A stretch of 64,000 nt of DNA from Hormiphora californensis (lineage: Eukaryota; Animalia; Ctenophora). How positions within the stretch are numbered: position 1 is the first letter of the stretch; each line of letters opens with the position of its first letter. Shown piece after piece: positions 26,123-64,000 of this stretch. The notes beneath the pieces are model-generated. The model made no database searches. It was not told the DNA's origin and was given only the letters and a program-made list of their open reading frames with translations. The stretch spans positions 7,564,001 to 7,628,000 of the forward strand of contig CM035352.1 of NCBI GenBank assembly GCA_020137815.1. Direction: 5' to 3'. The translations under genes and the position numbers were made by a program.

Positions 26123-37812
<11,690 letters not shown>

Positions 37813-39029: not shown

Positions 39030-39280
39030 CAGACCCAAACTCAAGACACTCTCAAAGGCAAAACGTTACCTTGTTCCAGACCAAACTAAACTCAAGACAC
39101 TCTCAAAGGCAAAACGTTACCTTGATCCAGACTAAACCAAACACAAGAATCTCTCCAAGGGATACCGTTACCTTGTTCCAGACCAAACTTAAGAGTCTCT
39201 CAAAGGCAAAACGCTACCTTGTTCCAGATCAAATCAAGCTCAAGAATCTCTCAAAGGCAAAACGTTACCTAGTTCCAGAT
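39030..39280. repeat. 51-bp tandem repeat, ~5 copies
   Basis: aaactcaagacactctcaaaggcaaaacgttaccttgttccagaccaaact at 39037, 39088 and onward. Confidence 0.85.
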
Positions 39281-42380: not shown

Positions 42381-45300
42381 ATGGCTGAGGGAGGTGATCA
42401 TGAGGTTGAGGAGTTAGCAGGGAAGGAGGAACAGGACGAGAAGGCAGCCCCTCCTCCCGTGTCGAGACTCAACAGCCTCTCAGGCAGAGTCAGTGAGGTA
42501 AGAACAGAAGGAAGAGAGACTCAATAGCCTCTCAGGCAGAGTCAGCGAGGTAAGAGTGGAAGGATGAGAGACTCAATAGGGTCTCTGGTCGAGTTAGTGA
42601 GGTAAGAACAGAAGGATGAGAGACTGAATAGCCTGTCAGGCAGAGTCAGTGAGGTAAGAAGAGAAGGAAGAGAGCCTGGCGGCGCCGACCCGATCTGAAC
42701 GCACTGTCTAGAATCAAAACGGGGTCTGGTGCCGCCAGACAGCTCCAGCAGAGACACTGTCTCAGATAGTGAGGCAAGATGAACCCCCAAACAACTCCCG
42801 TTGATAGAACTCAGTTGTCTCCTACATCTCTATATTTTCTAGGTGACTGATAAGACCCGGAAGTTGCTGAGTGATATCCGAGATAGGCAGAACTCCAAGA
42901 CGGGCAACCCCACTGCAGCGGTCACCCAGCCACCCCCCACTGCCAAGTCTCTGGATGGGGTAATGATCGACAGGAGACTCACCGAACCATCAGGTACAAT
43001 TAGATGTACGGGATAGACACGATATATAGACATCGTATAGACACGGTATAGACACAGTTTAGACACGGAATAGACGCGGAATAGACGCGGATTAGGGAAC
43101 AATAAATTTAATTCTGAAGACTCTGAACAAGTCAAAGCATCTATTTTCAAGCAATGAGAGAGACTGGTAACGTGAGATGGTCTCACCACACACTCCCGCC
43201 CCAATCTAACACCCCACCCTCCCCTCCAATCAGACCCTTGCATACCCACCTCCAGTCTACAAGATGTACATGTGCCCTCTCTCCAATCAGACCTCCTGAA
43301 CCCCTCTCACCCCACTGCAGCAGCACATGTGCCTCATACAGTTCGGCCACTATAATATCACACCTTGTGCCCTAAAGCATACAATCTGTCAAACAATCCC
43401 CATATTCCCTGCGGCCATTGCTACCGTCGGGGCGGGTAATCAATATTAATCAACCTATAATAACCCCCTAAAAATCAAAACACCAGGACAAAAAAACTAA
43501 AGTTATTCCGTCCAGGTGTCCTCTACAAAGCCAAGATGATAGGGAGTCTAAGCGTAGCAAACCACAAAGGAGACAAAATGGCAGTTGACGCAATGAGGAA
43601 CCTGAAAGTGATGGCAAAGACGAGTGGAAGACACAAGGATAGGATCATGATACGGATCTCAATTCAGGGTCTACACATACTGGAGACGGAGACACTAAGA
43701 CAGGTATGGAATGTGTGGTGTCTCTCTATCTCTCTCTCTCTATATCTCTCTCTTTCCACCGCAATAGAAATATTAATTGGAATGTGAGATATTGAGCATT
43801 CCCGGTATTGAGAGTTACCAGTGCTTTAATTAATTAGTATTCTCATCTACTAATAGGAGAAGTACCAACAATAGGGCTGGGACATGGGATAGGTACACTA
43901 GAAATAACCTCTCCTTCCAGGCGTCCACTAGGTCCGCCCTTCCAATATTCTCTAGGCCCAAAATTGGGGTAAAAAATCGGTCGACCCCCCTTCTCAACTA
44001 AAATCCCGAGATTGATACCAACTCCCCCCATCAGATACATATCCACGATCTGGACAAGATCTCCTACCTAGCAGAGGACCCAGATGACAAAAAAGTGTTC
44101 TCCTACATCTACAACAAACGGATACAAAACAAGGAAACTGGCAAGACGACCTCTGTACACCGACTCTTTGCGATCAAGACCCCTAAATGTACCCTAGTGG
44201 TGTCCAATATGAAGGCAGTGTTTCACTATATGCACGACATGAGAATGGGTTTCTCGGATCCTAATGTGGTTGATATGAAGGCAGCTAGGGAGGCAGTAAT
44301 AGCGGAGAGGGTGGAGGAAGAGGTGAAGGAGGAGGAGAAGCCTGAGGAGGATGATCCTCTAGGTAGGTTTTTAATGGGGGTCAGGACGAACAGTTCAATA
44401 TGTAGGAGGAAGTAAGAGAGGGTGAGAGAGAGAGAGAGGGAGAGAGAGAGGGGGGTGGGGTAATGAGAGGTAATCAGGTGACGTAACCCCAGGGGCAGGG
44501 ACCGGGGTAGAATAACACTCTGGGCATGCCCTATTCTGCCAGCTATCAGAATATCCATCCTCAATACTGTCCTAGCTTGTTCAGCCCACCCCTTACTCAA
44601 TACTGTCCTAGCTGCAGCAGACCAACACAAGATCTTGCCCCCTAACCTTCTAGCAAGAAATAACTAACAATAAAAGCTTCAATTGCAACTAATTAACATA
44701 TATTCCAACCCCTCAGGATTTGGGTATGCCCAGTTGGTTGACATTATAGACACAGAGACACTAATCGTACCCAAAGTACCCGAACCACCCTTGAGGAAGA
44801 CGAACCTACCACCCCTGCTGCAGTTAACCTATATGTGACTGCACCTACTGGGAACAGGTTAGCAGTCCCAGAGGAAGAAGGGACGCCATTACTGCGCGGG
44901 CATTCAGTTAGAGTTTCCCCTTAGGTAAGGTACCTAATCTGGTGAGAATTTTTTAGGGCCTAATCTCATTTAATGAATAATCTGGTGATGAATAAGGGTC
45001 AGTTCTCTCGACCCAAATTAAGATGTGAGACCTTGATAAGCAACAAAACATAATGCCAATGGGTGCACAGGTTGCGAGACTTTGAGATTCTAGAAAGCTT
45101 GAACTTTTGCCTTGAGTATCTCAACTAAGAGAGAAGGGATAACCAGGCGGTGGAAAATAAATCCTAATACTTAGCTCTATATTCCATCTCTCGCCCACTC
45201 GTGAGGGGGGGGGGGGACTCGTGCTAGTCTCAGTCTCCCAAACCAACCAAATGAGTAGCTACCCCCTCTTTCTCTATCTGTCTCTCTGATCTATCTCTCT

Positions 45301-48300
45301 GTCTCAGGCCGTTAAAGAAGACCCATTCGACATGATGGGAACACTGAATCCAGCGTGGAGCACGTGCGAGGCTAACAGCAGGTAACATTAACACAGGGTG
45401 TTTCTCAAAACAGCAGGTAACAAGAAATACAGAGAGTGTCTCAAAACAGCAGGTAAGTAAGTGGTAACACTGACAGGCCAATGATCCTGACAAAGGTAAC
45501 ATGAAATACACATGGTTTTTCAAAATGGGACACCCTGCACAAAACACTTGAATAATGTTTTGACTTTAAGGAACACCCTGTTTAACAAATTTAAAACAAA
45601 TTTAAAACAATACCAGCTGTATAACAAATGAGAATGTATAATGATATCGGCTATAAACACACGGCTTGAGTTACATCAAGACACACACAAGGATAGTGAC
45701 ATGAGTGGTATATTTGTTGTTATTGCACCCCAGATAGTGCAACTCATGACACATTTTCTCAACACGACATGGCAGAGAGCGATTTAAAGAAACATACACC
45801 ATACGGGCACAATACCTAATATAAGGGGCATCACGTAACAGCAATCCCCGGTCAGCAACTGAGCCGAAGCAACAGACAGCAACTACCCTAAGGGTAAGGG
45901 GAGGCAGCCTGTATAGACACAAGAAATGAGGGAGGCTACTTCTTGCCTGAGTTGTTACAATGCCTGAGGGTTAAGGACACTAAAATTTCAATTTAAAGCT
46001 CTCTCATCTAAAATAGATTTATTGCTCTGTATTAAATCATGTAAATTGGTATCAAGAAGGTAGTTTCAGACAATTTGCAATGATAGGAATATAAATTCAC
46101 CCAACCTCCTAATATTAATGTCCCTAACTTCTCTCCCAACCTCATCTACCACCCTCCCAATCCCCCCTCTAACACCCCCTCTAACACCCATCCCCTCCCC
46201 AGTTTGGACACTCTTTAACACCCCTCCCTCCCCAGTTTGGAACCGAAACCATGGTCCCTAGACCATACACAGGCCCGGTAGCACATCCCCAAGTTGGAGG
46301 AGACACTTTGAGGCCCCTTCCCAACCAGTCCTGTGCTGTTTACAATGCCACGCGCGGAGTATGATCGACATGGCCCCAAGACCCCAGTTGGAGAATTATG
46401 AACTACGTGGTACCTGTAGTAACTATGGGCCCTGCTAACTAAACCTGTTAAAGTAACCCACCAAAGTTGAAGTAGCGCCGTGGTCTGGAGGTTTCAATGG
46501 CCCAGCCTCTGAGACAACAAAAAATATGCCCCACCCGTTTAGAGGCAACGAAACCGTGTCCTGGACCATAAATGGGCCCTCTCTAACCCCTTAACACTTC
46601 AACACCCTCCCCTCCCAGTTTGGAGGACACTGAAGACCCGTGGTCCCTGGACCGATACAATGGGCCCGGTAGTACCAGTAGCGAGGAAAGTGAGGAGGAA
46701 CATACGTTTGGAGTGGCCCCCTCCCAGCCAGTACCTAGTGCCGTGTTCGTGGACCAGGGGGAGTATGAATGGGACATTGGGGAACCAGCAAGAACGTGAG
46801 TAATTAGTAACTAGTTAGTAACTAGTAACTAATGAGCAACTAGTGAGTAACTAATTAGAAATTAGTGAGTAACTGATTAGTAACTAAACACAAAAATTAA
46901 AGTCCGCCAGCGTCCTTAGCGGGAGGTGTGAATTGCACAACACGTCTCTTACATGTCTGAGTGAGACAACAAAATAGTATTGGAATCTAGACTTGGTTGT
47001 TAATTGGGGCTAACTGCTCAATCAAGTTCACCCAATTTAGGAATAGAGCTCAGTTAAATAGGGGGCTTGGGAAAGTAGTACACACGACATGCAATCAACC
47101 ATAAAATTGCAATGGTGCAGTAGTGAAAACAAGGAAGAGAGAGAGAGAGAGAGGGCTGAGGGGGAGATAGAGAGAGGTAGAGAGAGAGCAGAGATAGAAA
47201 GACAAAGATAGAGAGAGGCGAGACAGAGATAGAGGGAGAGAAGCGTGACTTCGAGTGTAAAAAGTCTCTAGGTTTGAAACCGGTGATAACCGGAAAACAA
47301 GGGATTAATAGGCTAGAAAACAAAATACTTGCATTCGTTTTGTAACGAGAAATCAGAAAAGCATATCGGGGGGGGGGGGTAGAAATGTAAGCTAAAAGAG
47401 AGGGATATCAAGAGGGATATCGAGAGGGTTATAAGAGAGGGGGAAGGATAAAGAGGGATATCGATAGTTAAAGATCATAGATGGCAACTGTCGTTTAGTG
47501 GTGGGATACGATTGCATGATGTACATCGTTTCTCTCTCTTTCTCTCTGCTCTCTCGAGATTACAAGAGGAGTATTGTTTACAGACCCCCGGTCCGAGAAC
47601 AATAAGTTGTTTGAACTCTCGACCTCATCAATTAGACCATTTACTGTTGGCCGATGTCACCTAGAACTCTATTTCCCTAGTTACACAGAGGACTAGAATT
47701 CTAATTCCCTAGTTACACTGAGGAATAGAATTCTAACTCCCTAGTTACACCAAGGACTAGAATTCTATTTCCCTAGTTACACCAAGGACTAGAATTCTAT
47801 TTCCCTAGTTACACAGAGGACTAGAATTCTAACTCCCTAGGACTAGAATTCTAACTCCCTAGTTACACTGAGGACTAGAATTCTAACTCCCTAGTTAAAC
47901 AGAGGACTAGAATTCTAACTCCCTAGTTACACAGAGGACTATAATTCTAACTCCCTAGTTACACAGAGGACTAGAATTCTAAATCCCTAGTTACACAGAG
48001 GACTAGAATTCTATTTCCCTAGTTACACAGAGGACTAGAATTCTATTTCCCTAGTTACACAGAGGACTAGAATTCTAATTCCCTAGTTACACTGAGGACT
48101 AGAATTCTAACTCCCTAGTTACACCAAGGACTAGAATTCTATTTCCCTAGTTACACCAAGGACTAGAATTCTATTTCCCTAGTTACACAGAGGACTAGAA
48201 TTCTAACTCCCTAGTTACACTGAGGACTAGAATTCTAACTCCCTAGTTACACTGAGGACTAGAATTCTAACTCCCTAGTTACACTGAGGACTAGAATTCT

Positions 48301-49442
48301 AACTCCCTAGTTACACTGAGGACTATAATTCTAACTCCCTAGTTACACAGAGGACTAGAATTCTATTTCCCTAGTTACACAGAGGACTATAACTCTATTT
48401 CCCTAGTTACACAGAGGACCAAGTGACTCTATCCGAGAGCAGGGAACGACTGTCAACTGTTACCAAGAAAGCTGTGGCTTCTCTGGAGAAAAGCCGGCAA
48501 GAGAAACAAAAAACAAATCCTGCACCAACTGGCAGCAGTCTTATTGACTTCTCTACATTTGAGGACAGGTAAGTGTTCCAGCTTATCGAAAGGTACCCGC
48601 ACTGCACCTTTCTCGACTAACCGTTCCCCAGTAAAATATAGATTAGAGCACAACAAAACAGACAGTTCCAATATCTACTGCAGCTATTCCTGGTAGTGAC
48701 ATCTGAACATGCCCCCCGGGGAACCTCAGTACAACTCACGTGAAGCGTCATCATGACTGCCAAAAACTCCTTCTTCACTGTAAATTCACACATAACCTGC
48801 AGCCCCTCCACCATCTTATCCTGTCCCCCTGCATCCATTCTCCCATTTTATCAAGCACCCCATTCCCCCATTTTGGCTTGTTGAGTACTCAACAAATTCT
48901 CACTGTATGTAACCCCCAACAGGTTGGAGAGCAGTACTGCAGTTGACTTGTTTGACTCCCTAGCAACACCCCAGACAACCACCACTACTACTAGATCTGC
49001 ATCTCCTGCTAAAACTGGTGGGCTGGCTGATGATCTGTTCTCACTGGACCTTAGCACCCCCGCAAAGGATTCCAACAAGGTGAGTGTATGATGTTGGGTT
49101 AAGTTAAATCAATGGGGGTACTGGGGGTAATGGGTGGTAACTAGTGGTGGGTTTGGATTGGATTTCTATTGTGGGACAGGTCCAAACTGTCTGGCTGATG
49201 GGGCGAGACTGAATGGCATCGAGTCATCCTTTCATGCTCGGGAAAGTACGGCATGCCTTGTTGAGTAAGGGGTGAGAGGGGGTCAACAAGGCATGCTAGG
49301 CAAACATGAATTGGACACAGGTCGAGAAACGATGGAGCTTACACTTCAACTAAACAGAGGACTTGTTGAGTAACAGAGGACCACTAAGAGGAACTGTGGT
49401 GTAAATTAGCACGCTGGAGAGGATCTATTGAACAACGGAGCG

Positions 49443-49540
<98 letters not shown>

Positions 49541-51373
49541 ATGTATGCAGTGAAGGAAGCTAGAAGGAAGTTACCACAACTCCAAGTTGTAATTACAACA
49601 GGGAGTGCCACACCCATTACCAGGTGCCAGATTAGGATGCAGTACAAGATCACTATAATAAGGAGATCTGATCAGATTAGGTCAACCAAGCAGGACTGTG
49701 GGAAATGTCGAGAGATCGCAAACAACTCTGGTGTGATTGTCAACCTCTCGAAATTGTACAAATCTACACAGTAGCTGGTTACCATGGAAACTGCCGTTGG
49801 TTTTATCTCATCTCATTAATTTTGTTGGCTGAAGTCTCGTGGGGGGGGGGGGGTAATAATGAAATTTCTGATAAGGACCTCCCCATGCAGGAGTGATGGC
49901 ACTCTTGTCCCCTCACTCCAATGGTGACCTCACTCCCCTCCATTATTGCAGGGAGGCATGCCGGTTGTAGCCCCGACCTCACTCTCCCCATTATTACAGG
50001 GAGGCATGCCCCGACCTCACTCCCCCCATTATTACAGGGAGGCATGCCCCGACCTCACTCCCCCCATTATTACAGGGAGGCATGCCGGTTGTAGCCCCGA
50101 CCTAACTCCCCCATTATTACAGGGAGGCATGCCCGTTGTAGCCCCGACCTCACTCCCCCCCCATTATTACAGGGAGGTATGCCCGTTGTAGCCCCGACCT
50201 CACTCTCCCCATTATTACAGGGAGGCATGCCCGTTGTAGCCCCGACCTCACTCCCCCCCCATTATTACAGGGAGGCATGCCCGTTGTAGCCCCGACCTCA
50301 CTCCCCCCCCATTATTACAGGGAGGTATGCCCGTTGTAGCCCCGACCTCACTCCCCCCCCATTATTACAGGGAGGTATGCCCGTTGTAGCCCCGACCTAA
50401 CTCCCCCCATTATTACAGGGAGGCATGCCCGTTGTAGCCCCGACCTCACTCCCCCCATTATTACAGGGAGGCATGCCCCGACCTCACTCTCCCCATTATT
50501 GCAGGGAGGTATGCCGGTTGTAGCCCCGACCTCTGAGTCACGAAAGTATGAGCTGGATATCTCGTCCCTCCTGGGCCCCACCCCAACTCAACCAACACCA
50601 CCATCAGGTATCTATCTACAGTTTCGTAGTTTTTGAGGAGTATATCACTAGGCTGGTATGGCACCAGGGTATCATACTCAGCTCTGGCAAACGCCCACTC
50701 AAGAATGTGATAATAACCAAATAATACCAAACAATAAACATAACTTCATTTTTAGGTACACAACAACAACCTAACTGGGGCGCATTCGGTAGTCAACCGG
50801 CTGCCACATCTGGTAGCATGTCAGGATTCGGTAGTCAACCCACAGCCACCTCTGGCTTCCAGGCATTTGGTGGCATGTCAGCATTTGGGGCAACTTCCCA
50901 ACCGGCAGGATTCGGGGCTACTAGCACCCAACCGGCAGGATTTGGAGGATCAAGTAGTGGGGGCACATTCGGGGCATCCCAGCCTACTCCCTCCTTTGGA
51001 GCTCAGCCATCTACTGCTGCAGGGAGCTTTGGTGGGTTCGGAGCTGCCCCACAGCAACCTAACTATCAACCAAACTTCGCTTTTCCTGTAAACTTCGGAG
51101 AAACGGTACGTAAATAGATTCATCATGGCCATACAGAAATGTTGTCTGACTAAGTAGTTGAACAAAATGCACTTCTTTTACCTTGTTATGTAACCCTCCT
51201 TTACATTTGTAAACACAGTCTAGCTAGGCAACTTTTACCTATACTTTTGATCTTTTCAGAGCACCACTACTGTCAAACCAGCCAAGTCGACAAACCCATT
51301 TCACCAGCCCCCTGCTAAAACCAACTCAACAACTTTTGATCCGTTTAGTGACTTGATGGGTGATGCCATTTAG
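42381..51373 (+). CDS. DAB: Disabled-like PTB-domain clathrin adaptor
   Basis: Exons 42381-42497, 42843-42993, 43516-43703, 44035-44362, 44717-~44924 (frame disrupted), 45308-45381, 46619-46795, 48407-48568, 48923-49079, 50505-50607, 50756-51105, 51260-51373. PTB domain GVLYKAKMIG..KGDK..HKDRIMIRISIQG..ISYLAED..FSYI..HRLFAIKT. The tail carries DPF, DPW, LIDF, DLF and NPF endocytic motifs. Confidence 0.88.
42464..42670 (+). repeat. 52-bp tandem array with four copies of the Dab exon-1 3' end plus donor
   Basis: Four copies of AGACTCAACAGCCTCTCAGGCAGAGTCAGTGAG|gtaaga, period 52. Confidence 0.9.
45374..45460 (+). repeat. Triplicated splice donor (AACAGCAG|gtaa), 35-36 bp period
   Basis: GT at 45382, 45417 and 45453. 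Confidence 0.75.
46165..46600 (+). pseudogene. Degenerate upstream copies of the Dab acceptor and exon 46619-46795
   Basis: ccccag|tttgga occurs twice (about 46202 and 46235). 46236-46390 aligns gappily to the whole exon, and 46535-46580 to its 5' part. Confidence 0.6.
47661..48419 (+). repeat. 32-bp tandem array with 24 copies of a Dab splice acceptor plus exon start
   Basis: Unit tagaattctaactccctag|TTACACAGAGGAC. Acceptors recur every 32 bp from 47680 to 48406, with one shortened unit. Confidence 0.93.
49445..49540. repeat. (GA)n microsatellite
   Basis: Direct inspection. Confidence 0.9.
49925..50532 (+). repeat. 38-50-bp tandem array with ~13 copies of a Dab acceptor plus exon start
   Basis: Unit cactcccccccattattacag|GGAGGCATGCCCGTTGTAGCCCCGACCT; the last copy (50505) continues into the exon. 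Confidence 0.9.
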
Positions 51374-51946: not shown

Positions 51947-54900
51947 CTAGTACTGGTGGTTAGCGATGAAGAGACTGTCTCCAGCACTGGCTCCCTCGAT
52001 CTCACCGTGGTACTTGCCCAGACATGCCATGTGGTTAGCATAGGCCCTCTTTCGCAGCTCGTTCTGTGCAGCGGCCACATTTTCAGGTTTTCCCTGCCAT
52101 GCCTTCAGGACACTAGCCTGGAGAGCTCGTCCGTAGGAGAAAGAGAGGGCCCAGGGTTTGCGAGCTGAGGAAGGGAGAAATATGTGAGTGGGTGAATTGG
52201 AAGAGTACTGAAAGTGAGATCAAGAGATAGTTAGGGGCGGGAAGCCGAATATCGGCTATGAATGGGAAAATCAATGCAACAATCTGATTTCTTCACCAAT
52301 GTGTCCCCAATGGTGTCCTTTATCACCAAAAAAAAGTGTAACATCCGGCTCGGAGTGGAACATGCTCAAAATTTAGAAAAACCATATGGGCGTGGTCGAG
52401 CGTGGGAAATTTTTTTACCATCAACCTAAATGGAAAAACGAGGGCACTAGAATGTGCAGAATCATCGCATTAGTGGGGGTAGGTGCCGGAATTAAGTCTC
52501 TATCTCATCCGGTTAATTAGATAATTGGATAATTAGGTTTGCGCATAATTTTCCTTTGGTTATATGGCTATAGCCACTTAGGAAAGGAGTAGAGACAAAA
52601 CCGAGGGCACTAAAATGATCAGCGTCCTCGAATTAATGGGGGTAGGTGCTGGAATTAAGTCTCTATCTCATTCGGGTAATTAGATAATTGGATAATTAGG
52701 TTTGCGCATAACCGTTTTTTGGCTATATATGGCTATAGTCACTTAGGAATGGTTTAGAGACTTTTCATTGGTGCCATTTTGTAGGTAATGGTCAAGTTAT
52801 GGGGGGTCGACGTCGGACTATTAAGCTCTATCTTCAACCGTTTAGCCGTTATTTGACTTTAAAGGTGCTCAAAATGAGCGAAAAACGGTAAAAAGCCCGA
52901 TTTTGAGCACCTTTAAAGTCAAATAACGGCTAAACGGTTGAAGATAGAGCTTAAAAGTCCGACGTCGACCCCCCATAACTTGACCATTGCCTACAAAATG
53001 GCGCCAATGAAAAGTCTCTAAACCATTCCTAAGTGGCTATAGCCATATAGCCAAAAAACGGTTATGCGCAAACCTAATTATCCTATTATCTAATTACCCG
53101 AATGAGATAGAGACTTAATTCCAGCACCTACCCCAACTAATTCGAGGACGCTGATCATTTTAGTGCCCTCGGTTTTGTCTCTACTCCTTTCCTAAGTGGC
53201 TATAGCCATATAACCAAAGGAAAATTATGCACAAACCTAATTATCCAATTATCTAATTAACCGGATGAGATAGAGACTTAATTCCGGCACCTACCCCCAC
53301 TAATGCGATGATTCTGCACATTCTAGTGCCCTCGTTTTTCCATTTAGGTTGATGGTAAAAAAAATCCCACGCTCGACCACGCCCATATGGTTTTTCTAAA
53401 TTTTGAGCATGCTCCACTCCGAGCCGGATGTTACACTTTTTTTTGGTGATAAAGGACACCATTGGGGACACATTGGTGAAGAAATCAGCTTGTTGCATTG
53501 ATTTTCCCATTCAGGCTGGTCTAGCCCCTAACTAAGATATATTGGGCTGATTGATAGTTCTATTTCAATTTCGTCCGAAAGAGATTAGAGATAGACTCAC
53601 CCTTATCACCGAAGTTGTTGATGGCATTAAGGTTCTGGGATGCAGCCTCCTCACTCTGTCCTCCAGAGAGGAAAGTGATTCCCACAACAGCAGGAGGGAC
53701 AGTCCTGGAGAGAGCTGAAATGGGGTATTGAGTTAGTGCTGTTCAGTTGTAGTAGCCTGCTACTAAAATCAACAAGTTAGCGGGGATGATGGGGGGATGA
53801 AGTATTCAGTGATGGATGGGGAACTTTGCTGACCGATTTGATTTAGACTGATAAAGTTTCACTAAACACAGGATATCAACAGATCTGATAACCCAGCAAT
53901 ATCAGATAACACCCCCCCCCCCTCAGATATCTAGTTAGGGGCGGGAAGCCGAATATCGGCTATGAATGGGAAAATCAATGCAACAATCTGATTTCTTCAC
54001 CAATGTGTCCCCAATGGTGTCCTTTATCACCAAAAAAAAGTGTAACATCCGGCTCGGAGTGGAACATGCTCAAAATTTAGAAAAACCATATGGGCGTGGT
54101 CGAGCGTGGGAAATTTTTTTACCATCAACCTAAATGGAAAAACGAGGGCACTAGAATGTGCAGAATCATCGCATTAGTGGGGGTAGGTGCCGGAATTAAG
54201 TCTCTATCTCATCCGGTTAATTAGATAATTGGATAATTAGGTTTGCGCATAATTTTCCTTTGGTTATATGGCTATAGCCACTTAGGAAAGGAGTAGAGAC
54301 AAAACCGAGGGCACTAAAATGATCAGCGTCCTCGAATTAATGGGGGTAGGTGCTGGAATTAAGTCTCTATCTCATTCGGGTAATTAGATAATTGGATAAT
54401 TAGGTTTGCGCATAACCGTTTTTTGGCTATATATGGCTATAGTCACTTAGGAATGGTTTAGAGACTTTTCATTGGTGCCATTTTGTAGGTAATGGTCAAG
54501 TTATGGGGGGTCGACGTCGGACTATTAAGCTCTATCTTCAACCGTTTAGCCGTTATTTGACTTTAAAGGTGCTCAAAATGAGCGAAAAACGGTAAAAAGC
54601 CCGATTTTGAGCACCTTTAAAGTCAAATAACGGCTAAACGGTTGAAGATAGAGCTTAAAAGTCCGACGTCGACCCCCCATAACTTGACCATTGCCTACAA
54701 AATGGCGCCAATGAAAAGTCTCTAAACCATTCCTAAGTGGCTATAGCCATATAGCCAAAAAACGGTTATGCGCAAACCTAATTATCCTATTATCTAATTA
54801 CCCGAATGAGATAGAGACTTAATTCCAGCACCTACCCCAACTAATTCGAGGACGCTGATCATTTTAGTGCCCTCGGTTTTGTCTCTACTCCTTTCCTAAG

Positions 54901-57900
54901 TGGCTATAGCCATATAACCAAAGGAAAATTATGCACAAACCTAATTATCCAATTATCTAATTAACCGGATGAGATAGAGACTTAATTCCGGCACCTACCC
55001 CCACTAATGCGATGATTCTGCACATTCTAGTGCCCTCGTTTTTCCATTTAGGTTGATGGTAAAAAAAATCCCACGCTCGACCACGCCCATATGGTTTTTC
55101 TAAATTTTGAGCATGCTCCACTCCGAGCCGGATGTTACACTTTTTTTTGGTGATAAAGGACACCATTGGGGACACATTGGTGAAGAAATCAGCTTGTTGC
55201 ATTGATTTTCCCATTCAGGCTGGTCTAGCCCCTAACTAATCAGGTTTTATCCGATGATAGATGAGGTGACAAGATGGACCAGTCCCGCTTCGTGCTGCTA
55301 ACAATATCTACTCTCGTAGCGCGCCCAGAGCCCCGACCCCGCGCGCGCTGCCAAGTCCCGAATCTCTAATTTCTCGATCACTCTCCCAGTCTCTCAGCGA
55401 TCGTGATGTGTGGGAATGTTCTAGCATGCTTGATGAGATTGAATGGCTAGTGGCCACAATAAATGAACGCAGGTGGCTCCTTTTTCAGAAAATAATGCAC
55501 TACAAACTCGATAAATACAGGGAAACATCTCACGCTATAAACATCAGTTGTTGTTCTAACATGATTTGTGTTCGTTCAGATCACGTTCACGATAAATAAA
55601 CAGTATCACTACCAGGCCCATTTTAATTTCACACCAACTTCCTTCTTGTATCAAGTCATATGGCCCAAATCACATCTGTGTACACACTAACAATATCAGA
55701 GTGCTAGCTGTTGGCCCAAATCGCACACACACACACTCTCTAGTCTCTCTCTCTCTCCCTGTCTCCCATATCAGAGCACTGCTGTTTAGAGGATATATGG
55801 TGGCGGGGGAGGGGGGAGGATGGGGAACCTAAATCTTGTTTAGTCGGCAAATATGATTTGCATTAATTCATTTAGTGCTCCCTCTTACATCCCTCCTTGC
55901 CTAGCTCCCTCGTACATCGTATTATCCCTCCTTTCCTACCCTAGCTCCATCTCTAACCCCTTTATCCACCCCTTTACAACCCCATCTCGCCTTTCTAACC
56001 CCTTTATATCCACCCCTGCACACTACCCTCCACCTGTCTTTTAATATTGTTCGGTAATAAAGAGAAATGACTTGCTTGGAAAGCAAGATGTGTGTGTAGC
56101 CTATCAAATTCTAACTAATCTCCCCCCCCCCCCCCCCCCGTGTGTATTGTGGTGGGGAAGGAAGTGCATAATATTATATGAGTCGAGATTCCAGAACTTT
56201 CTACACACTGAGTCCACAGAAAAGAAGGAATAATTTACACTCCCCCATCGCGATGCATCGTTTCTATCTCTTTCTCTCTCTCTCTCTTTCTTTCTCTCTC
56301 TCTCTCTGTCTCTCTGCCTCCTTCTAGAAGAATAAATTTCGGTTGCTATGTACAGAGCGGACAGAGCCGACAGAGAGCCTCTTGATATGCATTCACTCCC
56401 CACTCATTACATATGCAAAGCAGCAGCTGTCAGCTAGTACAGTCAGCTACTCACAGCTAGGCTCTCTCCAAGAAAGCAACTAGCAATCGTATACAATGGT
56501 GAATGAGATATGATTATATGGTCTCCCAAGATAGAAGAAAGTGGTATCCCGTCTCCTACCGCCCGGAGAGAGAACTGATAAGGTTGGACTGTTATAGAAC
56601 TGCCGGTTTGCTAGCCTAGCCAGGTGTGATTCTTGGTGAACCTGCCCAACACAACAACTACAACCCCACCACTACCACTACCACCCTATATTATCTACGT
56701 ACCAAATGGCAAATATTGCTACAATTACCATTTACCACCTTTTAATAATCTACTTACCAGTAACAGTAGCACAGGCGACCTGTTCAGGGGTTGCCTTCAC
56801 TGGACACTGCATACCAGGAGTCACCATATTGGGCTTTAGAAGGGATCCCTCTAGGTAGAGGTTGTGATCAAGACACGCCTGGGAAGGGGAGGATTAGAGA
56901 TTAGTAAGGGATCCCTCTAGGTAGAGGTTGTGATCCAGACATGCCTGGGAAGGGGAGGATTAGAGATTAGTAAGGGATCCCTCTAGATATAGGTTGTGAT
57001 CCAGACATGCCTGGGAAGGGGAGGATTAGAGATTAGTAAGGGATCCCTCTAGGTAGAGGTTGTGATCAAGACACGCCTGGGAAGGGGAGGATTAGAGATT
57101 AGTAAGGGATCCCTCTAGGTAGAGGTTGTGGTCCAGACACGCCTGGGTTAGGGAGGATTAGAGATTAGTAAGGGATCCCTCTAGGTAGAGGTTGTGATCC
57201 AGACACGCCTGGGAAGGGGAGGATTAGAGATTAGTAAGGGATCCCTCTAGGTAGAGGTTGTGATCAAGACACGCCTGGGAAGGGGAGGATTAGAGATTAG
57301 TAAGGGATCCCTCTAGGTAGAGGTTGTGATCAAGACACGCCTGGGAAGGGGAGGATTAGAGATTAGTAAGGGATCCCTCTAGGTAGAGGTTGTGATCCAG
57401 ACACGCCTGGGAAGGGGAGGATTAGAGATTAGTAAGGGATCCCTCTAGGTAGAGGTTGTGATCAAGACACGCCTGGGAAGGGGAGGATTAGAGATTAGTA
57501 AGGGATCCCTCTAGGTAGAGGTTGTGGTCCAGACATGCCTGGGGGAAGGGGGAGGATTAGAGATTAGTAAGGGATCCCTCTAGGTATAGGTTGTGGTCCA
57601 GACACGCCTGGGAAGGGGAGGATTAGAGATTAGTAAGGGATCCCTCTAGGTACAGGTTGTGGTCCAGACACGCCTGGGAAGGGGAGGATTAGAGATTAGT
57701 AAGGGATCCCTCTAGGTAGAGGTTGTGATCCAGACATGCCTGGGAAGGGGAGGATTAGAGATTAGTAAGGGATCCCTCTAGATATAGGTTGTGATCCAGA
57801 CATGCCTGGGAAGGGGAGGATTAGAGATTAGTAAGGGATCCCTCTAGGTAGAGGTTGTGATCAAGACACGCCTGGGAAGGGGAGGATTAGAGATTAGTAA

Positions 57901-60900
57901 GGGATCCCTCTAGGTAGAGGTTGTGGTCCAGACACGCCTGGGTTAGGGAGGATTAGAGATTAGTAAGGGATCCCTCTAGGTAGAGGTTGTGATCCAGACA
58001 CGCCTGGGAAGGGGAGGATTAGAGATTAGTAAGGGATCCCTCTAGGTAGAGGTTGTGATCAAGACACGCCTGGGAAGGGGAGGATTAGAGATTAGTAAGG
58101 GATCCCTCTAGGTAGAGGTTGTGATCAAGACACGCCTGGGAAGGGGAGGATTAGAGATTAGTAAGGGATCCCTCTAGGTAGAGGTTGTGATCCAGACACG
58201 CCTGGGAAGGGGAGGATTAGAGATTAGTAAGGGATCCCTCTAGGTAGAGGTTGTGATCAAGACACGCCTGGGAAGGGGAGGATTAGAGATTAGTAAGGGA
58301 TCCCTCTAGGTAGAGGTTGTGGTCCAGACATGCCTGGGGGAAGGGGGAGGATTAGAGATTAGTAAGGGATCCCTCTAGGTATAGGTTGTGGTCCAGACAC
58401 GCCTGGGAAGGGGAGGATTAGAGATTAGTAAGGGATCCCTCTAGGTACAGGTTGTGGTCCAGACACGCCTGGGAAGGGGAGGATTAGAGATTAGTAAGGG
58501 ATCCCTCTAGGTAGAGGTTGTGGTCCAGACACGCCTGGGAAGGGGAGGATTAGAGATTAGTAAGGGATCCCTCTAGATATAGGTTGTGGTCCAGACATGC
58601 CTGGGAAGGGGAGGATTAGAGATTAGTAAGGGATCCCTCTAGGTACAGGTTGTGGTCCAGACATGCCTGGGAAGGGGAGGATTAGAGATTAGTAAGGGAT
58701 CCCTCTAGGTACAGGTTGTGATCCAGACACGCCTGGGAAGGGGAGGATTAGAGATTAGTAAGGGATCCCTCTAGGTAGAGGTTGTGGTCCAGACATGCCT
58801 GGGGGAAGGGGGAGGATTAGAGCTTAGTAAGAGATCCCTCTAGGTAGAGGTTGTGATCAAGACACGCCTGGGAAGGGGAGGATTAGAGATTAGTAAGGGA
58901 TCCCTCTAGGTACAGGTTGTGGTCCAGACACGCCTGGGAAGGGGAGGATTAGAGATTAGTAAGGGATCCCTCTAGATATAGGTTGTGGTCCAGACACGCC
59001 TGGAGAGGATTAGAGATTAGTAAGGGATCCCTCTAGGTACAGGTTGTGATCCAGACACGCCTGGGAAGGGGAGGATTAGAGATTAGTAAGGGATCCCTCT
59101 AGGTAGAGGTTGTGGTCCAGACACGCCTGGGAAGGGGAGGATTAGAGATTAGTAAGGGATCCCTCTAGGTATAGGTTGTGGTCCAGACATGCCTGGGAAG
59201 GGGAGGATTAGAGATTAGTAAGGGATCCCTCTAGGTAGAGGTTGTGGTCCAGACATGCCTGGGAAGGGGAGGATTAGAGATTAGTAAGGGATCCCTCTAG
59301 GTATAGGTTGTGGTCCAGACACGCCTGGGAAGGGGGAGGATTAGAGATTAGTAAGGGATCCCTCTAGATATAGGTTGTGATCCAGACATGCCTGGGAAGG
59401 GGAGGATTAGAGATTAGTAAGGGATCCCTCTAGGTACAGGTTGTGGTCCAGACATTCCTGGGAAGGGGAGGATTAGAGATTAGTAAGGGATCCCTCTAGG
59501 TACAGGTTGTGGTCCAGACATGCCTGGGAAGGGGAGGATTAGAGATTAGTAAGGGATCCCTCTAGGTAGAGGTTGTGGTCCAGACACGCCTGGGAAGGGG
59601 AGGATTAGAGATTAGTAAGGGATCCCTCTAGATATAGGTTGTGATCCAGACACGCCTGGGAAGGGGAGGATTAGATATTAGTAAGGGATCCCTCTAGGTA
59701 TAGGTTGTGGTCCAGACATGCCTGGGAAGGGGAGGATTAGAGATTAGTAAGGGATCCTTCTAGATATAGGTTATTATGGTCCAGACACGCCTGGGTTAGG
59801 GAGGATAATGACTCACTCACATAACCTAACCACTAATTATAAAGATATGTTTTAACTAATTAGTTGTAAATTGTAATTAGCTGCCAGGCACCCACTAATT
59901 AATTTCCACACACCTTGTAAACAGCAGCAAAGACCCTCTCAGAGACCTCCTGGCACCGTTCCAAGGTATGGGTCCCATCACACAGGACCTCAGGCTCTAC
60001 AATTGGAACAAGTCCGTTCTGTTGGCAGATGGTAGCGTACCTGGCCAGAGTGTAGGCATTCTCTTGGATAGCCAGCTCTGGAGGGGGAGGGAAGGGGGTT
60101 ATTTCAAATTTATTCTGGAAAGCAAGATAGGTGTTTTTTGTAGCTTTTAAAGTTCTAACTAATCTCCCCCCCCTGTGTGTTGTGGCAACTAAGGAAGCCG
60201 AAGAAAGTGCTATGCACGCGTCAAGATTCCAGAACTTTCCAAAGAGCACTGCATAAAAACATTTAGTGGAGCAGGAGTTTTTAAATTCTTTGGGGGAGGC
60301 CGGAGGGCTAAATATAGGAACTTTTAACCTCAATAACTCTATATCTAAACCCACACATACCAGATGGACCGTAGTCGGAGATCTTCAGGACAGCCCTCCA
60401 CTTAGCAAACTGAGCCCCACCTGCCTTGTACTTAGCACATCTCTCACCCAGTCCGTCAATACCCTGGGAAACACAAGATAAACTAGTAGAGTCGATAACT
60501 ACATCGACCTCTCCCAATTGTTCCAGTTTTTGTCACATCTGTTTGGAGCCTCGACACGACCTCTAAACAGGTGTTACTTTTTCACAAACTGTTTTCATCT
60601 TGGTGCATGTAATCAGCAGTTGAAATGTTGTTAATCATAACAAAAACCTAACTATTTTTTTTCAACTTGGGGTAAAACCATGGGTGTCAAAAGTTAGCTC
60701 TAGGTCCCCTGAGTAACCATCCGGAGACTCTAAGAGATATTTCAAGCCGTTCTCCCGTAATCATTAATCCCGGTGGAGAAAAAAATACAATGCGGACGTA
60801 CGTGAGCGCTGGCAGGCTGTTTACATGTTATTGTATGTCACAAATAAAAACAAGGAAGTTTAGTTCAACAGTTTACACATGTTTCAATACAAAATTGTAT

Positions 60901-62367
60901 TTCATCAGTTCTGATGAAATACAATTTTGTATTGAAACATGTGTAAACTGTTGAACTAAACTTCCTTGTTTTTATTTGTAAACAGCTCCTCCTGGTGAGT
61001 AGAGCACTATCCGAGGCAAGGACAATCAGCTATAGTTATTGTATGTCTCTCACTCTCTCTGGAAAAACCGCACGTGCGGTTGCGCCGCGCGAGATAACTC
61101 TTTCTCAAGGGGGAGAAAAGAGAGAGACGCACATTAACGTTATACATTAAAGTTGAGGTTGTAGGCAATTGCACGTACGTCCATACTCAAATATGTGCTC
61201 TACCGGGATTAATGATTACAGGAGAACGGCTTGAAATATCTCTTAGAGTCTCCGGATGGTTACTCAGGGGACCTAGAGCTAACTTTTGACACCCATGGTT
61301 TTACCCCAAGTTGAAAAAAAAATAGTTAGGTTTTTGTTATGATTAACAACATTTCAACTGCTGCTTACACCAAGATGAAAACAGTTTGTGAAAAAGTAAC
61401 ACCTGTTTAGAGGTCGTGTCGAGGCTCCAAACAGATGTGACAAAAACTGGAACAATTGGGAGAGGTCGATGTAGTTATCGACTCTACTAAACAACGAATA
61501 TGCATTATATAGTGGTTACTATAGTATTTTATTGGGTTGAACTATTTTGGGTGATACACTTATCACTTATAAAATAGTGGTTACTAGTAGGTACTAAATT
61601 AGTAAGTAAAGAATCCTAAAGAATAACACTTTGTTTCTTTCTTACCTGGGTGACGGTCTCTCCATCAGTACCAGGGAGGGGTACAACACCCTTATCGACC
61701 TTGATACCTGGTAGGGGAGATAGTTTTTAGGAGGCGGTTGTGATTTAGATGATATTTCCCCTCCAGAGGAGAGAATACACCACTGTGGCATGGTTGTACT
61801 TTTTTCACAAAAAAGAGAGGGAAAGAGAGAGGAAGAAAGAGAGATAGATTTAAAGACAAATCATGTCACCTGGGATGATATTGTGCTCCTGAAGGATCTG
61901 AACGAGGGGTGTCCCATCAGCTCCCTTCTGGAAGAGTGTCTCCTCAAAGAGGATGCATCCCCCGATGTAGTTCCCAATACCTGCCTCTTTGTCCAGAGAG
62001 AAGAGAAGCTCACGGTAGTCCCGCCTGTTGGTCTGAAGTGATGGGGGCGATTAGAAAAAGGAGGGTATCTTTCGGTCTAGTGATAGGATGTGATTAGAGA
62101 TAGGATTTGTACAAACGATATGATATTGATCTTATTCAGTAGCAAGTTGGGGGCGAAACTCTTAGAACGAATGGTTTGAGTGAGAAAGGTACAAAGGGGA
62201 GGTTCACCACTTACCTCGTTATTTTCAACACCAATACCAGCAAATCGTTTTCCGATTGTTCCAGTGCTCTCATCGGCAGCTAGGATACCCTTTCCATTGT
62301 CCACAATCGCATGAGCGATCTGCCTTAGTTCATCCTGTTGTTCCTTGGTTAGAGCAGCGGGTGCCAT
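51947..62367 (-). CDS. ALDO: Fructose-bisphosphate aldolase, class I
   Basis: Exons 62367-62215, 62032-61870, 61707-61646, 60463-60361, 60077-59914, 56878-56758, 53714-53601, 52164-51947, all GT-AG and in phase. Motifs: [31 protein letters not shown], Schiff-base [30 protein letters not shown]-terminal SLFIANHQY*. Confidence 0.97.
52228..53534. mobile_element. 1307-bp non-autonomous foldback element, Academ-like (TAG termini, 3-bp TSD), copy 1
   Basis: AGA|tagttaggggc ... gcccctaacta|AGA. Near-perfect arms of about 620 bp with a loop of about 25 bp near 52878-52900. Confidence 0.82.
53932..55238. mobile_element. 1307-bp Academ-like foldback element, copy 2
   Basis: ATC|tagttaggggc ... gcccctaacta|ATC. 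Appears identical to copy 1 but has a different TSD. Confidence 0.82.
56840..59810 (-). repeat. 66-bp tandem array with ~45 copies of the aldolase exon-6 acceptor plus first 13 codons
   Basis: Minus-strand unit actaatctctaatcctccccttcccag|GCGTGTCTGGATCACAACCTCTACCTAGAGGGATCCCTT. It fills almost the whole of intron 5. Confidence 0.95.
60484..61489. mobile_element. 1006-bp Academ-like non-autonomous element (second family)
   Basis: AAC|tagtagagtcgataac ... gttatcgactctacta|AAC. TIRs of about 290 bp and an internal perfect palindrome at 60840-60979. Confidence 0.82.
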
Positions 62368-62470
62368 GGTAACCTAGTTGAGAGTTAGGGTCATGGTTAC
62401 CTTGTTGGGATTTAGAGTCATGGTTAATGGGAGAGACATGGTTACCTAGTTAGATTTAGAGTCATGGTTA
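62364..62470 (-). repeat. Degenerate repeats of the acceptor plus ATG just upstream of the aldolase start
   Basis: ag|gt(t/a)accATG three times, plus further taaccATG partial copies. Confidence 0.7.
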
Positions 62471-62764: not shown

Positions 62765-64000
62765 CTAATTCCCTCCTAGCCTCTCAAACACTTTGGTTTG
62801 CCGCTCAAGCAACTCATTATTCCTCTCCAGCAACTCGATTATTTTATCTAATTTCTGGTGGTAAGATGAGGATTGATCTCCCTGACCAGTACAGAATGGA
62901 CGAGGGGATGGACGAGGTGATGTTAACTCTTCAATCGCTGGTTTAACCAAACCCCCAATAGACCCAGGTAACTTCAAATCAATTCGGTTCTCTTCCCCTA
63001 CTAGAACACCAATATTTGTGGCTGGCACAACAGCAGACTCCCTTCCTAGTGTATTATCACCTCGGAGAGTATCCAGGGAACTATAGTAGTGCTCATGGGC
63101 GCGGGCGAAGTGGCTTGCCGGGGCAGAGTAAGATCTGTTCATTGGTTCATACTCTATATAAGGCTCTACAACCCTCTCCGTCAGATGAACCTCCCTCTCT
63201 GTGGGCTTGGTGGCTGAAGGGAAGGCTGCTGCGACAGGGTCCTCTTTGTGCTTCCAGTTTAGTGATAACAAGTTGGCATCACGGAACGCAATCCCGCCAC
63301 ATCTGAATCCTGGATCAAGGGATATTTTACAGTGCATCAACAGCTTTTCCTTCTCAACTCTGTAAATGGTGACAGAGCATACATTGAACCCTGATACGGC
63401 CGCTAAGTAGGTTTGTTGGCAGAAGGTTAGATGACAGGGTGATATGAGACCGGTGAGATGAGTCTCTACTAGGGTATGTAGATTATAGTTGATTATCTTT
63501 AGCTGTCCTAGCCCTGAGTTATCTAGAGATGTCCTAGGTAGAACCATGCTGTCCATGTTAACAGGATCCCCTGTGAACAGATCCCGGTCTGCGCTACCAA
63601 GCTGCATTTTACCCTCAAATGTTGTAAGAAACCCAAATTGTGTCAGAGAGAAGGCAAGGGCGGCCAGTCCACTGATGAAGATAACTTCACCATTGCGATA
63701 ACATTTGGTTGATTTACCGTCTGATACCAGAACGGCAATGTGTTTAACCTCTGAGGAGCCCGGGGAGAATTCAGCAGCGATTGCGGTACATTTACTAATA
63801 GGATCTATTGGAGTGACATAACTCCTTTCGCCGGTGCTAAAGTTGTGGATTGTTAGTTTATCCGTCGTCACAGACACCGTATGTCCTGATAACAGGTAGA
63901 AACACCCCAAAACTGGCGTTGGTAAAACGATCTTTTTCTTAACGTCTGCTGGTCGCGATGATCGGAACTCTTGAAGACCGTTTTCTGTGACGACCACCTT
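62765..64000 (-). CDS. WD-repeat and coiled-coil protein (WDCP/C2orf44-like), 5'-partial, uninterrupted ORF
   Basis: Open frame of more than 410 aa running to the window edge. Beta-rich region GLISPCHLTF..AAVS..VTIYRV..ISLD..RCGGIAF..LL recalls WDCP (similarity from memory, not a search). C-terminal heptads KLDKIIELLERNNELLERQ. Confidence 0.75.
   Translation of the reverse strand, partial: KVVVTENGLQEFRSSRPADVKKKIVLPTPVLGCFYLLSGHTVSVTTDKLTIHNFSTGERSYVTPIDPISKCTAIAAEFSPGSSEVKHIAVLVSDGKSTKCYRNGEVIFISGLAALAFSLTQFGFLTTFEGKMQLGSADRDLFTGDPVNMDSMVLPRTSLDNSGLGQLKIINYNLHTLVETHLTGLISPCHLTFCQQTYLAAVSGFNVCSVTIYRVEKEKLLMHCKISLDPGFRCGGIAFRDANLLSLNWKHKEDPVAAAFPSATKPTEREVHLTERVVEPYIEYEPMNRSYSAPASHFARAHEHYYSSLDTLRGDNTLGRESAVVPATNIGVLVGEENRIDLKLPGSIGGLVKPAIEELTSPRPSPRPFCTGQGDQSSSYHQKLDKIIELLERNNELLERQTKVFERLGGN

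What the first reader, a model, noticed from the sequence alone, without database searches (positions are those of the whole stretch)
56840..59810. Aldolase intron built from ~45 decoy 3' splice sites carrying a library of synonymous exon starts
Each 66-bp unit has a branch point, tract, CAG and codons for [13 protein letters not shown], then ACT AAT CTC TAA. Only the final copy continues to the catalytic Schiff-base Lys (LLKPNMV). All five recurrent variable sites are third-position silent (GCG/A, CTT/G, GAT/C, CTC/A/G, TAC/T) and occur in mixed combinations. Singletons TCC>TCT, GAG>GAA and CAC>CAT are also silent. I saw only one replacement (GCA>GAA near 59456) and one 3-nt insertion in the outermost unit. 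A core glycolytic gene therefore tolerates 3 kb of perfect decoy acceptors that appear to be filtered at the protein level.
Basis: partly seen in the sequence, partly recalled or inferred. Interest (0 to 1): 0.88.

Follow-up and report, generated by a model that had tools for sequence, protein, structure and literature searches.

The report
Splice-junction repeat that archives exon alleles
In a marine animal, likely a comb jelly, the start of one aldolase exon and its splice signal are repeated 44 extra times inside the intron; the messenger RNAs seen skip the copies, and the copies differ almost only by silent changes, likely because they are copied from, and swapped with, working versions of the exon.

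Summary
Real. Aldolase intron 5 (minus strand) holds 44 decoy copies of a 66-bp unit (27 nt of intron end, AG, 39 nt of exon 6) ahead of the true exon. 9 of 10 distinct exon-part substitutions are silent (P about 1e-4). The structure is a known kind, the amphioxus 'mirage' minisatellite, and this scan has met it before on other DNA. Decoys cannot be filtered as protein: all 44 hit TAA, and both RNA contigs seen splice to the last copy. Added here: mRNAs from two other samples carry exon starts that match decoy haplotypes, not this window's exon. Five other exon-edge arrays in the window show the same bias (16 of 23 silent, P 1e-5). A published amphioxus alignment shows it too (15 of 21, by eye), unremarked in that paper's main text. 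Best reading: unequal recombination between alleles moves exon-edge sequence in and out of the array, so selection on the real exon leaves its mark on the decoys (inferred, 0.62). Not shown: direction and rate of exchange, or splicing in an array-carrying individual.

The parts
56879..59790 (-). 44 decoy units (mostly 66 bp): 39 nt copy of the exon 6 start, then 27 nt of intron end with CTAAT branch-like motifs, pyrimidine tract and CAG; in-frame TAA in each
56758..56878 (-). Aldolase exon 6, the only copy that continues to the Lys229 equivalent and has a GT donor 121 nt on
   Evidence: RNA contigs X15, X16
59791..59913 (-). Unique 5' part of intron 5 (123 nt): donor GTGTGT to the first (decoy) acceptor
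   Evidence: DNA contigs of X3 and X5 match it with 0 differences
59914..60077 (-). Aldolase exon 5
56871..58522 (.). 12-unit higher-order duplication: 56871-57727 equals 57666-58522 (857 nt exact, lag 795)
59722..59790 (-). Outermost unit 1: 3-nt in-frame insertion and two private silent changes; also present in DNA runs X3 and X5
59456..59456 (-). The only replacement change in the array (Ala to Glu, unit 6, singleton)
60361..60463 (-). Aldolase exon 4; a contig of DNA run X3 shows a tandem duplication of its acceptor and start that the window lacks
   Evidence: (tables 5, 5c)
61646..62367 (-). Aldolase coding exons 1-3 (62367-62215, 62032-61870, 61707-61646)
   Evidence: ends of exons 2 and 3 corrected by one base from the printed splice dinucleotides
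62365..62470 (-). Small 27-bp array repeating the acceptor and ATG of the first coding exon
51947..53714 (-). Aldolase exons 7 (53714-53601) and 8 (52164-51947)

Best explanation
This is a 'mirage' minisatellite: a tandem repeat of the intron 5/exon 6 boundary whose copies are skipped in the mRNAs seen, and whose exon parts are likely copied from, and swapped with, different working alleles of exon 6 by unequal recombination. Step 1 (shown): the boundary is duplicated 44 times and each copy ends in a stop. Step 2 (shown in two RNA contigs from other samples): splicing goes to the last acceptor. Step 3 (inferred): the last one wins by position, being next to the exon's strong donor, since its 27 intron bases are identical to those before most decoys; any wrongly spliced RNA would be lost to nonsense-mediated decay. 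Step 4 (inferred): misaligned exchange between a unit of one chromosome and the real exon start of the other puts exon alleles into the array and unit bases into the exon. Aldolase selection allows only silent alleles in the exon, so the array inherits silent variants without being selected itself. Patchy exchange among units then shuffles the variants.
For: Silent bias 9 of 10. RNA run X16: exon 6 starts GCA.TGT.CTG.GAC.CAC.AAC.CTC.TAC and continues into the real exon; this is array haplotype AGCCC (4 units), 3 differences from the window's exon. RNA run X15: CTG.GAC...CTC.TAC, as in decoys (first codon not read directly). The sister-species mRNA L001 has CTG, GAC, CTG, TAT. So 5 of the 6 recurrent decoy alleles that differ from this exon occur in a working exon elsewhere: 3 in RNA of the same or a very close species, 2 only in L001. 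GCA is in neither the window's exon nor L001, so a single-lineage history does not supply it. X16 differs from the window at 3 of the 39 shared bases but 1 of 216 other exon bases laid (Fisher P 0.012, post hoc). 14 haplotypes at 5 sites within 24 bp, with all four combinations at several site pairs. Units nearer the exon resemble it more (rho -0.56, P 0.001 with one copy of the block removed). Five other coding-edge arrays: 16 of 23 silent, P 1.3e-5; frames set by the only open frame and splice phase or Pfam. Amphioxus BflGb6 mirage: 15 of 21 silent by my eye count. Precedent for flow from a skipped copy into the exon: human CBS 844ins68, proposed gene conversion (PMC2630376, passages).
Against: No exchange event was observed; the genomes behind the RNA runs are unknown. 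X15 shows no concentration of differences in the shared 39 nt (2 of 39 vs 9 of 325, P 0.33). CTA at codon 7 (12 units) was seen in no working exon. 3 of 7 L001 differences are absent from the array, and L001 is near saturation at silent sites, so its matches are weak evidence. Polarity is not significant in units 1-20 alone (P 0.17), and units 43 and 44, next to the exon, differ from it by 4 and 2 bases. Two of the five other arrays show little bias (2 of 4 and 2 of 5 silent). RNA evidence is one contig per run at depth 3-7, and X20 and X7 gave nothing.
Confidence: 0.62

Rival explanations
1. Back-flow purge: variants arise inside the array, and units overwrite the exon so often that haplotypes carrying replacement units are removed by selection. 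The array is then itself under indirect protein selection. This is closest to the first reader's idea.
For: 3 of 4 singleton substitutions are silent (P 0.06). X16's differences cluster in the shared 39 nt (P 0.012), as array-to-exon flow predicts. CBS precedent.
Against: A replacement unit survives at unit 6 and a nonsense change in the 32-bp array. Two of the silent singletons lie in the outermost unit, which may be an old captured allele. Selection on a distant unit would be very weak (inference).
Confidence: 0.15
2. Time capsule without exchange between alleles: units were duplicated from one lineage's own exon edge at different times, and record its past silent states.
For: The commonest unit alleles at codons 3 and 4 equal the outgroup state. 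Units near the exon look like today's exon.
Against: GCA (15 units) is in X16's mRNA but in neither this exon nor the outgroup. Three states at codon 7 and all-four-combination patterns need shuffling.
Confidence: 0.1
3. The decoys are used at RNA level: either as a regulated dead end (stop codon, decay) that tunes aldolase, or by stepwise re-splicing, since joining exon 5 to a decoy recreates AAG|GCRTGT, close to the real donor AAG|GTGTGT.
For: The first decoy lies 123 nt from the donor, a normal short intron. Decay would hide such RNA. The reformed junction is one or two bases from the true donor (sequence).
Against: No RNA contig covers a unit's intron part (0 depth at 56897-56944). Neither route explains codon-position bias. 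The other acceptor arrays start GGA, TTA or GAG and cannot reform a donor.
Confidence: 0.07
4. Chance or mutation bias gives the third-position pattern.
For: Only 10 variants; they may descend from three or four founder sequences.
Against: P stays below 5e-4 at a transition bias of 8; other frames 0 of 10 and 0 of 9; repeated in other arrays, 25 of 33 overall.
Confidence: 0.03
5. Assembly artefact: alleles of a heterozygous or pooled sample strung in tandem.
For: The 12-unit block is an exact copy; no long reads were available.
Against: In DNA runs X3 and X5, contigs cross from the unique intron into unit 1 with 0 differences, and summed depth on unit sequence is 264,280 and 678,386 against 191 and 596 on the flank. 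If contigs overlap at most 31 deep (my assumption), that is at least about 45 and 37 copies. One of the two runs may be the source sample; both cannot be.
Confidence: 0.03

Closest known systems
Amphioxus 'mirage' minisatellites (Adh3, globins BflGb6/BflGb9, troponin C, PGBD5); PMC3087553 (passages and supplement 4 read), PMC3902484 (passages read); the original Adh3 paper (Canestro et al. 2002) could not be fetched
   Same: Unit spans an intron-exon boundary, repeats a splice site, mRNA is normal, outer unit diverged. The BflGb6 alignment also looks silent-biased (15 of 21 by eye).
   Different: 44 decoys against 3-6 in BflGb6; likely a ctenophore; decoy haplotypes here are matched to expressed alleles of other samples. 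The globin paper calls the mechanism unclear and its main text has 0 hits for 'synonymous' or 'silent'.
Human CBS 844ins68 (PMC2630376, passages read)
   Same: Duplicated intron/exon junction; the downstream site is used and the upstream copy is spliced out; gene conversion from the skipped copy into the exon is proposed.
   Different: One extra copy, carrying a harmful replacement; here 44 copies with silent variants.
Human F7 IVS7 37-bp VNTR (PMC1557585, abstract and Discussion read)
   Same: Five to nine identical splice sites in tandem; only the one next to the exon is used, by position.
   Different: Donor side; tested by mutation in cells; no coding variation discussed in the parts read.
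Human minisatellites mutating by inter-allelic processes (PMC2599865, search listing and start of abstract only)
   Same: Internal variant shuffling attributed to exchange between alleles.
   Different: Not tied to a coding exon, so no protein filter on the variants.

Membership tests
Mirage minisatellite | Tandem unit spans an exon-intron boundary | tested here: met
   39 nt exon plus 27 nt intron per unit; boundary fixed by RNA
Mirage minisatellite | Splice signals are duplicated | tested here: met
   45 CAG acceptors; 36 of 44 intron parts identical, including the one before the real exon
Mirage minisatellite | Normal mRNA, no aberrant splice products | tested here: met
   2 of 2 RNA contigs at the junction use the last acceptor; weak: low depth, other individuals, contigs drop rare forms
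Mirage minisatellite | Length instability between alleles or cells | tested here: inconclusive
   12-unit block duplication; an exon 4 acceptor duplication present in X3 and absent in the window; length of this array in other animals not measured
Mirage minisatellite | Somatic mosaicism (reported for Adh3, via PMC3087553) | not testable with these tools
   needs single-molecule data from tissues
Mutually exclusive exon cluster (Dscam type; features recalled) | Each copy is a whole exon with its own donor and open frame | tested here: not met
   44 of 44 decoys stop in frame; no consensus donor inside a unit
Recursive-splicing (ratchet) sites (features recalled) | AG immediately followed by a usable GT donor | tested here: not met
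   Acceptors are followed by GC (43 of 44 decoys) or GA (1), never GT; use as GC donors not tested
Class I fructose-bisphosphate aldolase (host gene) | PF00274 domain and Schiff-base Lys229 | tested here: met
   PF00274 E 4e-169 for the related full protein P0001; window exons 87-98% identical to it in the single-exon matches; Lys aligned

The most novel reading that the evidence does not exclude
Mirage arrays are two-way allele reservoirs: they store exon-edge alleles of a population and write them back into working exons, so exon edges in these animals evolve by conversion from intronic decoys and the decoys carry a protein-selection signature without ever being translated. This would be a general, unreported property of mirages from comb jellies to amphioxus, and would explain how they form.
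Probability: 0.35. Interest if true: 0.72.

Novelty: new member of a known kind. Interest (0 to 1): 0.5.

Why it matters
Mirages have been a curiosity since 2002 and the globin paper calls their origin unclear. Silent-only variation, and matches between decoys and expressed alleles, point to recombination between alleles at exon edges and make this testable with phased genomes. Silent variants also bar-code each unit, so RNA reads can show which of 45 near-identical acceptors is used: a natural test of splice-site choice by position. In practice such arrays corrupt gene models (P0013 appears to contain one) and give false signals of purifying selection in introns.

Tried and rejected
No whole genome is held for this window, so no genome-wide count. 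RNA run X20 and run X7 laid nothing: no evidence either way. One metagenome pattern scan gave 1 locus, an mRNA of a relative, and no genomic copy. The original mirage paper was not held under DOI, PMC id or PubMed id; it may already remark on silent variants. Literature searches with no paper holding the terms; one search gave 2 papers, one search gave 4 (passages of PMC8527503 read: high heterozygosity and 13% tandem repeats in Hormiphora, nothing on splice-site repeats in the passages shown). Left out of the pooled silent test: the 51-bp array (exon status unclear), the 36-bp and 27-bp arrays (no informative coding variation), the 45-bp array (no open frame), 3 deleted units of the 50-bp array and 1 of the 32-bp array. 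Rejected: alternative-exon cluster, coding repeat, mutation bias. The amphioxus alignment was counted by eye only, leaving out the region after a 1-nt deletion.
Full report
Observation. The array lies at 56836-59806, period 66, 44.9 copies. On the minus strand it is 44 decoy units followed by aldolase exon 6. Each decoy has 39 nt of the exon start and 27 nt of intron end closing in CAG, with an in-frame TAA. Exon 6 carries the residue that aligns with aldolase A Lys229. A full spliced mRNA from a relative (L001, 81-90% identical across exon matches) and splice phases give an eight-exon coding model, with the array in intron 5.

Silent bias. Of 10 distinct substitutions in the exon part, 9 are silent; 25-34% would be expected (P 3e-5 to 5e-4). 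All 6 recurrent ones are silent, and none is silent in the other two frames. Against the real exon the result is the same (P 6e-5). Copies are not independent: units 21-32 equal 33-44, and the variants may descend from a few founders. I therefore counted distinct alleles, not copies.

Is it real DNA? Contigs of DNA runs X3 and X5 (two samples, two studies) run from the unique intron into unit 1 with no differences. Summed depth on unit sequence is about a thousand times the flank. The tool warns that this sum is not a copy number. If overlapping contigs stack at most 31 deep, the floor is about 45 and 37 copies. One run may be the source sample. No long reads were available.

Splicing. RNA runs X15 and X16 each give one contig that joins exon 5 to the last copy and runs on into the real exon. 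No RNA contig covers the intron part of unit 44. X20 and X7 gave nothing. This is thin: depth 3-7, other individuals whose arrays are unknown, and decay would hide decoy products. The real acceptor has the same 27 bases as most decoys, so it likely wins by position next to the exon's donor, as shown for the human F7 donor repeat (PMC1557585, Discussion) and described for CBS 844ins68 (PMC2630376, passages).

Where the variants come from. The window's exon has haplotype GTTCC at the five recurrent sites. X16's mRNA has AGCCC, found in 4 decoys; X15's has CTG, GAC, CTC, TAC, as in decoys (loose ends and pieces). L001 has CTG, GAC, CTG, TAT. Five of the six recurrent decoy alleles that differ from this exon are thus seen in working exons; the sixth (CTA) was not. 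GCA is absent from both this exon and the outgroup yet present in 15 decoys and in X16's mRNA, which needs exchange across haplotypes in one direction or the other. X16's differences cluster in the shared 39 nt (3 of 39 vs 1 of 216, P 0.012, post hoc); X15's do not (P 0.33). Units resemble the exon more near it (rho -0.56), though not within units 1-20 alone, and the two nearest units differ from it by 4 and 2 bases.

It is a habit of this genome. At least eight other arrays in the 64 kb repeat a splice site or its signals. Five with informative coding parts give 16 of 23 silent changes (P 1.3e-5): 8 of 10, 2 of 2, 2 of 2, 2 of 4 and 2 of 5. X3 shows a duplication of the exon 4 acceptor that the window lacks. 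Protein P0013 (96% to P0001) repeats the end of exon 5 four times before exon 6, which I read as a donor-side array in the same intron of a relative, mis-annotated as coding; its DNA was not seen. Its id prefix is, from recall, that of Pleurobrachia gene models, so the animal is likely a ctenophore.

Mechanism. Shown: structure, stops, silent bias, splicing to the last copy in two contigs, allele sharing. Inferred: misaligned recombination or conversion between a unit and the real exon start of the other chromosome, which is reciprocal, so exon alleles enter the array and unit bases enter the exon; selection on aldolase acts at the exon; exchange among units shuffles variants into 14 haplotypes. 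I put this at 0.62, back-flow purge as the main filter at 0.15, a one-lineage time capsule at 0.10, use at RNA level at 0.07, chance and artefact at 0.03 each.

Known relatives. Repeats spanning exon-intron boundaries are the amphioxus mirages (PMC3087553, passages; PMC3902484, passages). Earlier notes of this scan pointed me to that name and report such arrays in annelids, sea urchins and a clam; I checked the papers, not those loci. The array meets three mirage features tested here, with instability inconclusive. In the BflGb6 alignment (supplement 4) I count by eye 15 silent of 21 substitutions, and the main text has no hit for 'synonymous' or 'silent'. Searches found no paper on silent bias in such repeats or on ctenophore cases; the 2002 Adh3 paper could not be read and may bear on this.

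Verdict. A large, real member of a known class. The part worth pursuing is the allele sharing between decoys and working exons, which offers a testable origin for mirages. Interest 0.5.

Noticed in passing
window 3297-3432 (-), 5032-5219 (-), 42464-42674 (+), 47661-48419 (+), 49926-50533 (+): Five more exon-edge arrays (2 to 23 extra splice sites) in a TGF-beta-type receptor kinase gene and a PTB-domain (Disabled-like) gene; pooled 16 of 23 changes silent.
   Followed up: yes
window 39035-39279 (-), 45374-45456 (+), 62365-62470 (-), 46200-46340 (+): Further donor or acceptor repeats, and decayed copies of the acceptor of the exon at 46619; coding status or variation not informative.
   Followed up: partly
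window 32812-33454 (-), 36643-36735 (-), 4038-4103 (-): Arrays that repeat only the branch-point-like motif and pyrimidine tract just before an acceptor, without the AG.
   Followed up: no
window 52228-53535 and 53932-55239: Two identical 1308-nt palindromic elements (MITE-like, TA flanks) in aldolase introns 7 and 6, on both sides of exon 7; a recent local hop or an assembly duplication.
   Followed up: partly
window 60484-61489: Another palindromic MITE-like element in aldolase intron 3.
   Followed up: no
window 60270-60470 in DNA runs X3 and X5: X3 has joints going back 65 and 42 bases at the exon 4 acceptor, a divergent intron 4 allele, and a deep contig that leaves the window sequence inside exon 4 at 60383; X5 depth rises over the exon 4 start.
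   Followed up: partly
P0013 residues 209-272: A relative's aldolase gene model repeats the exon 5 end four times, likely a donor-side array in the same intron read as coding.
   Followed up: partly
window 62768-64000 (-): A 410-codon open frame upstream of aldolase with no Pfam match above cut-off.
   Followed up: no
window 56095-56129 and 60139-60173: A shared 35-nt motif with a C run on the plus strand in aldolase introns 6 and 4.
   Followed up: no
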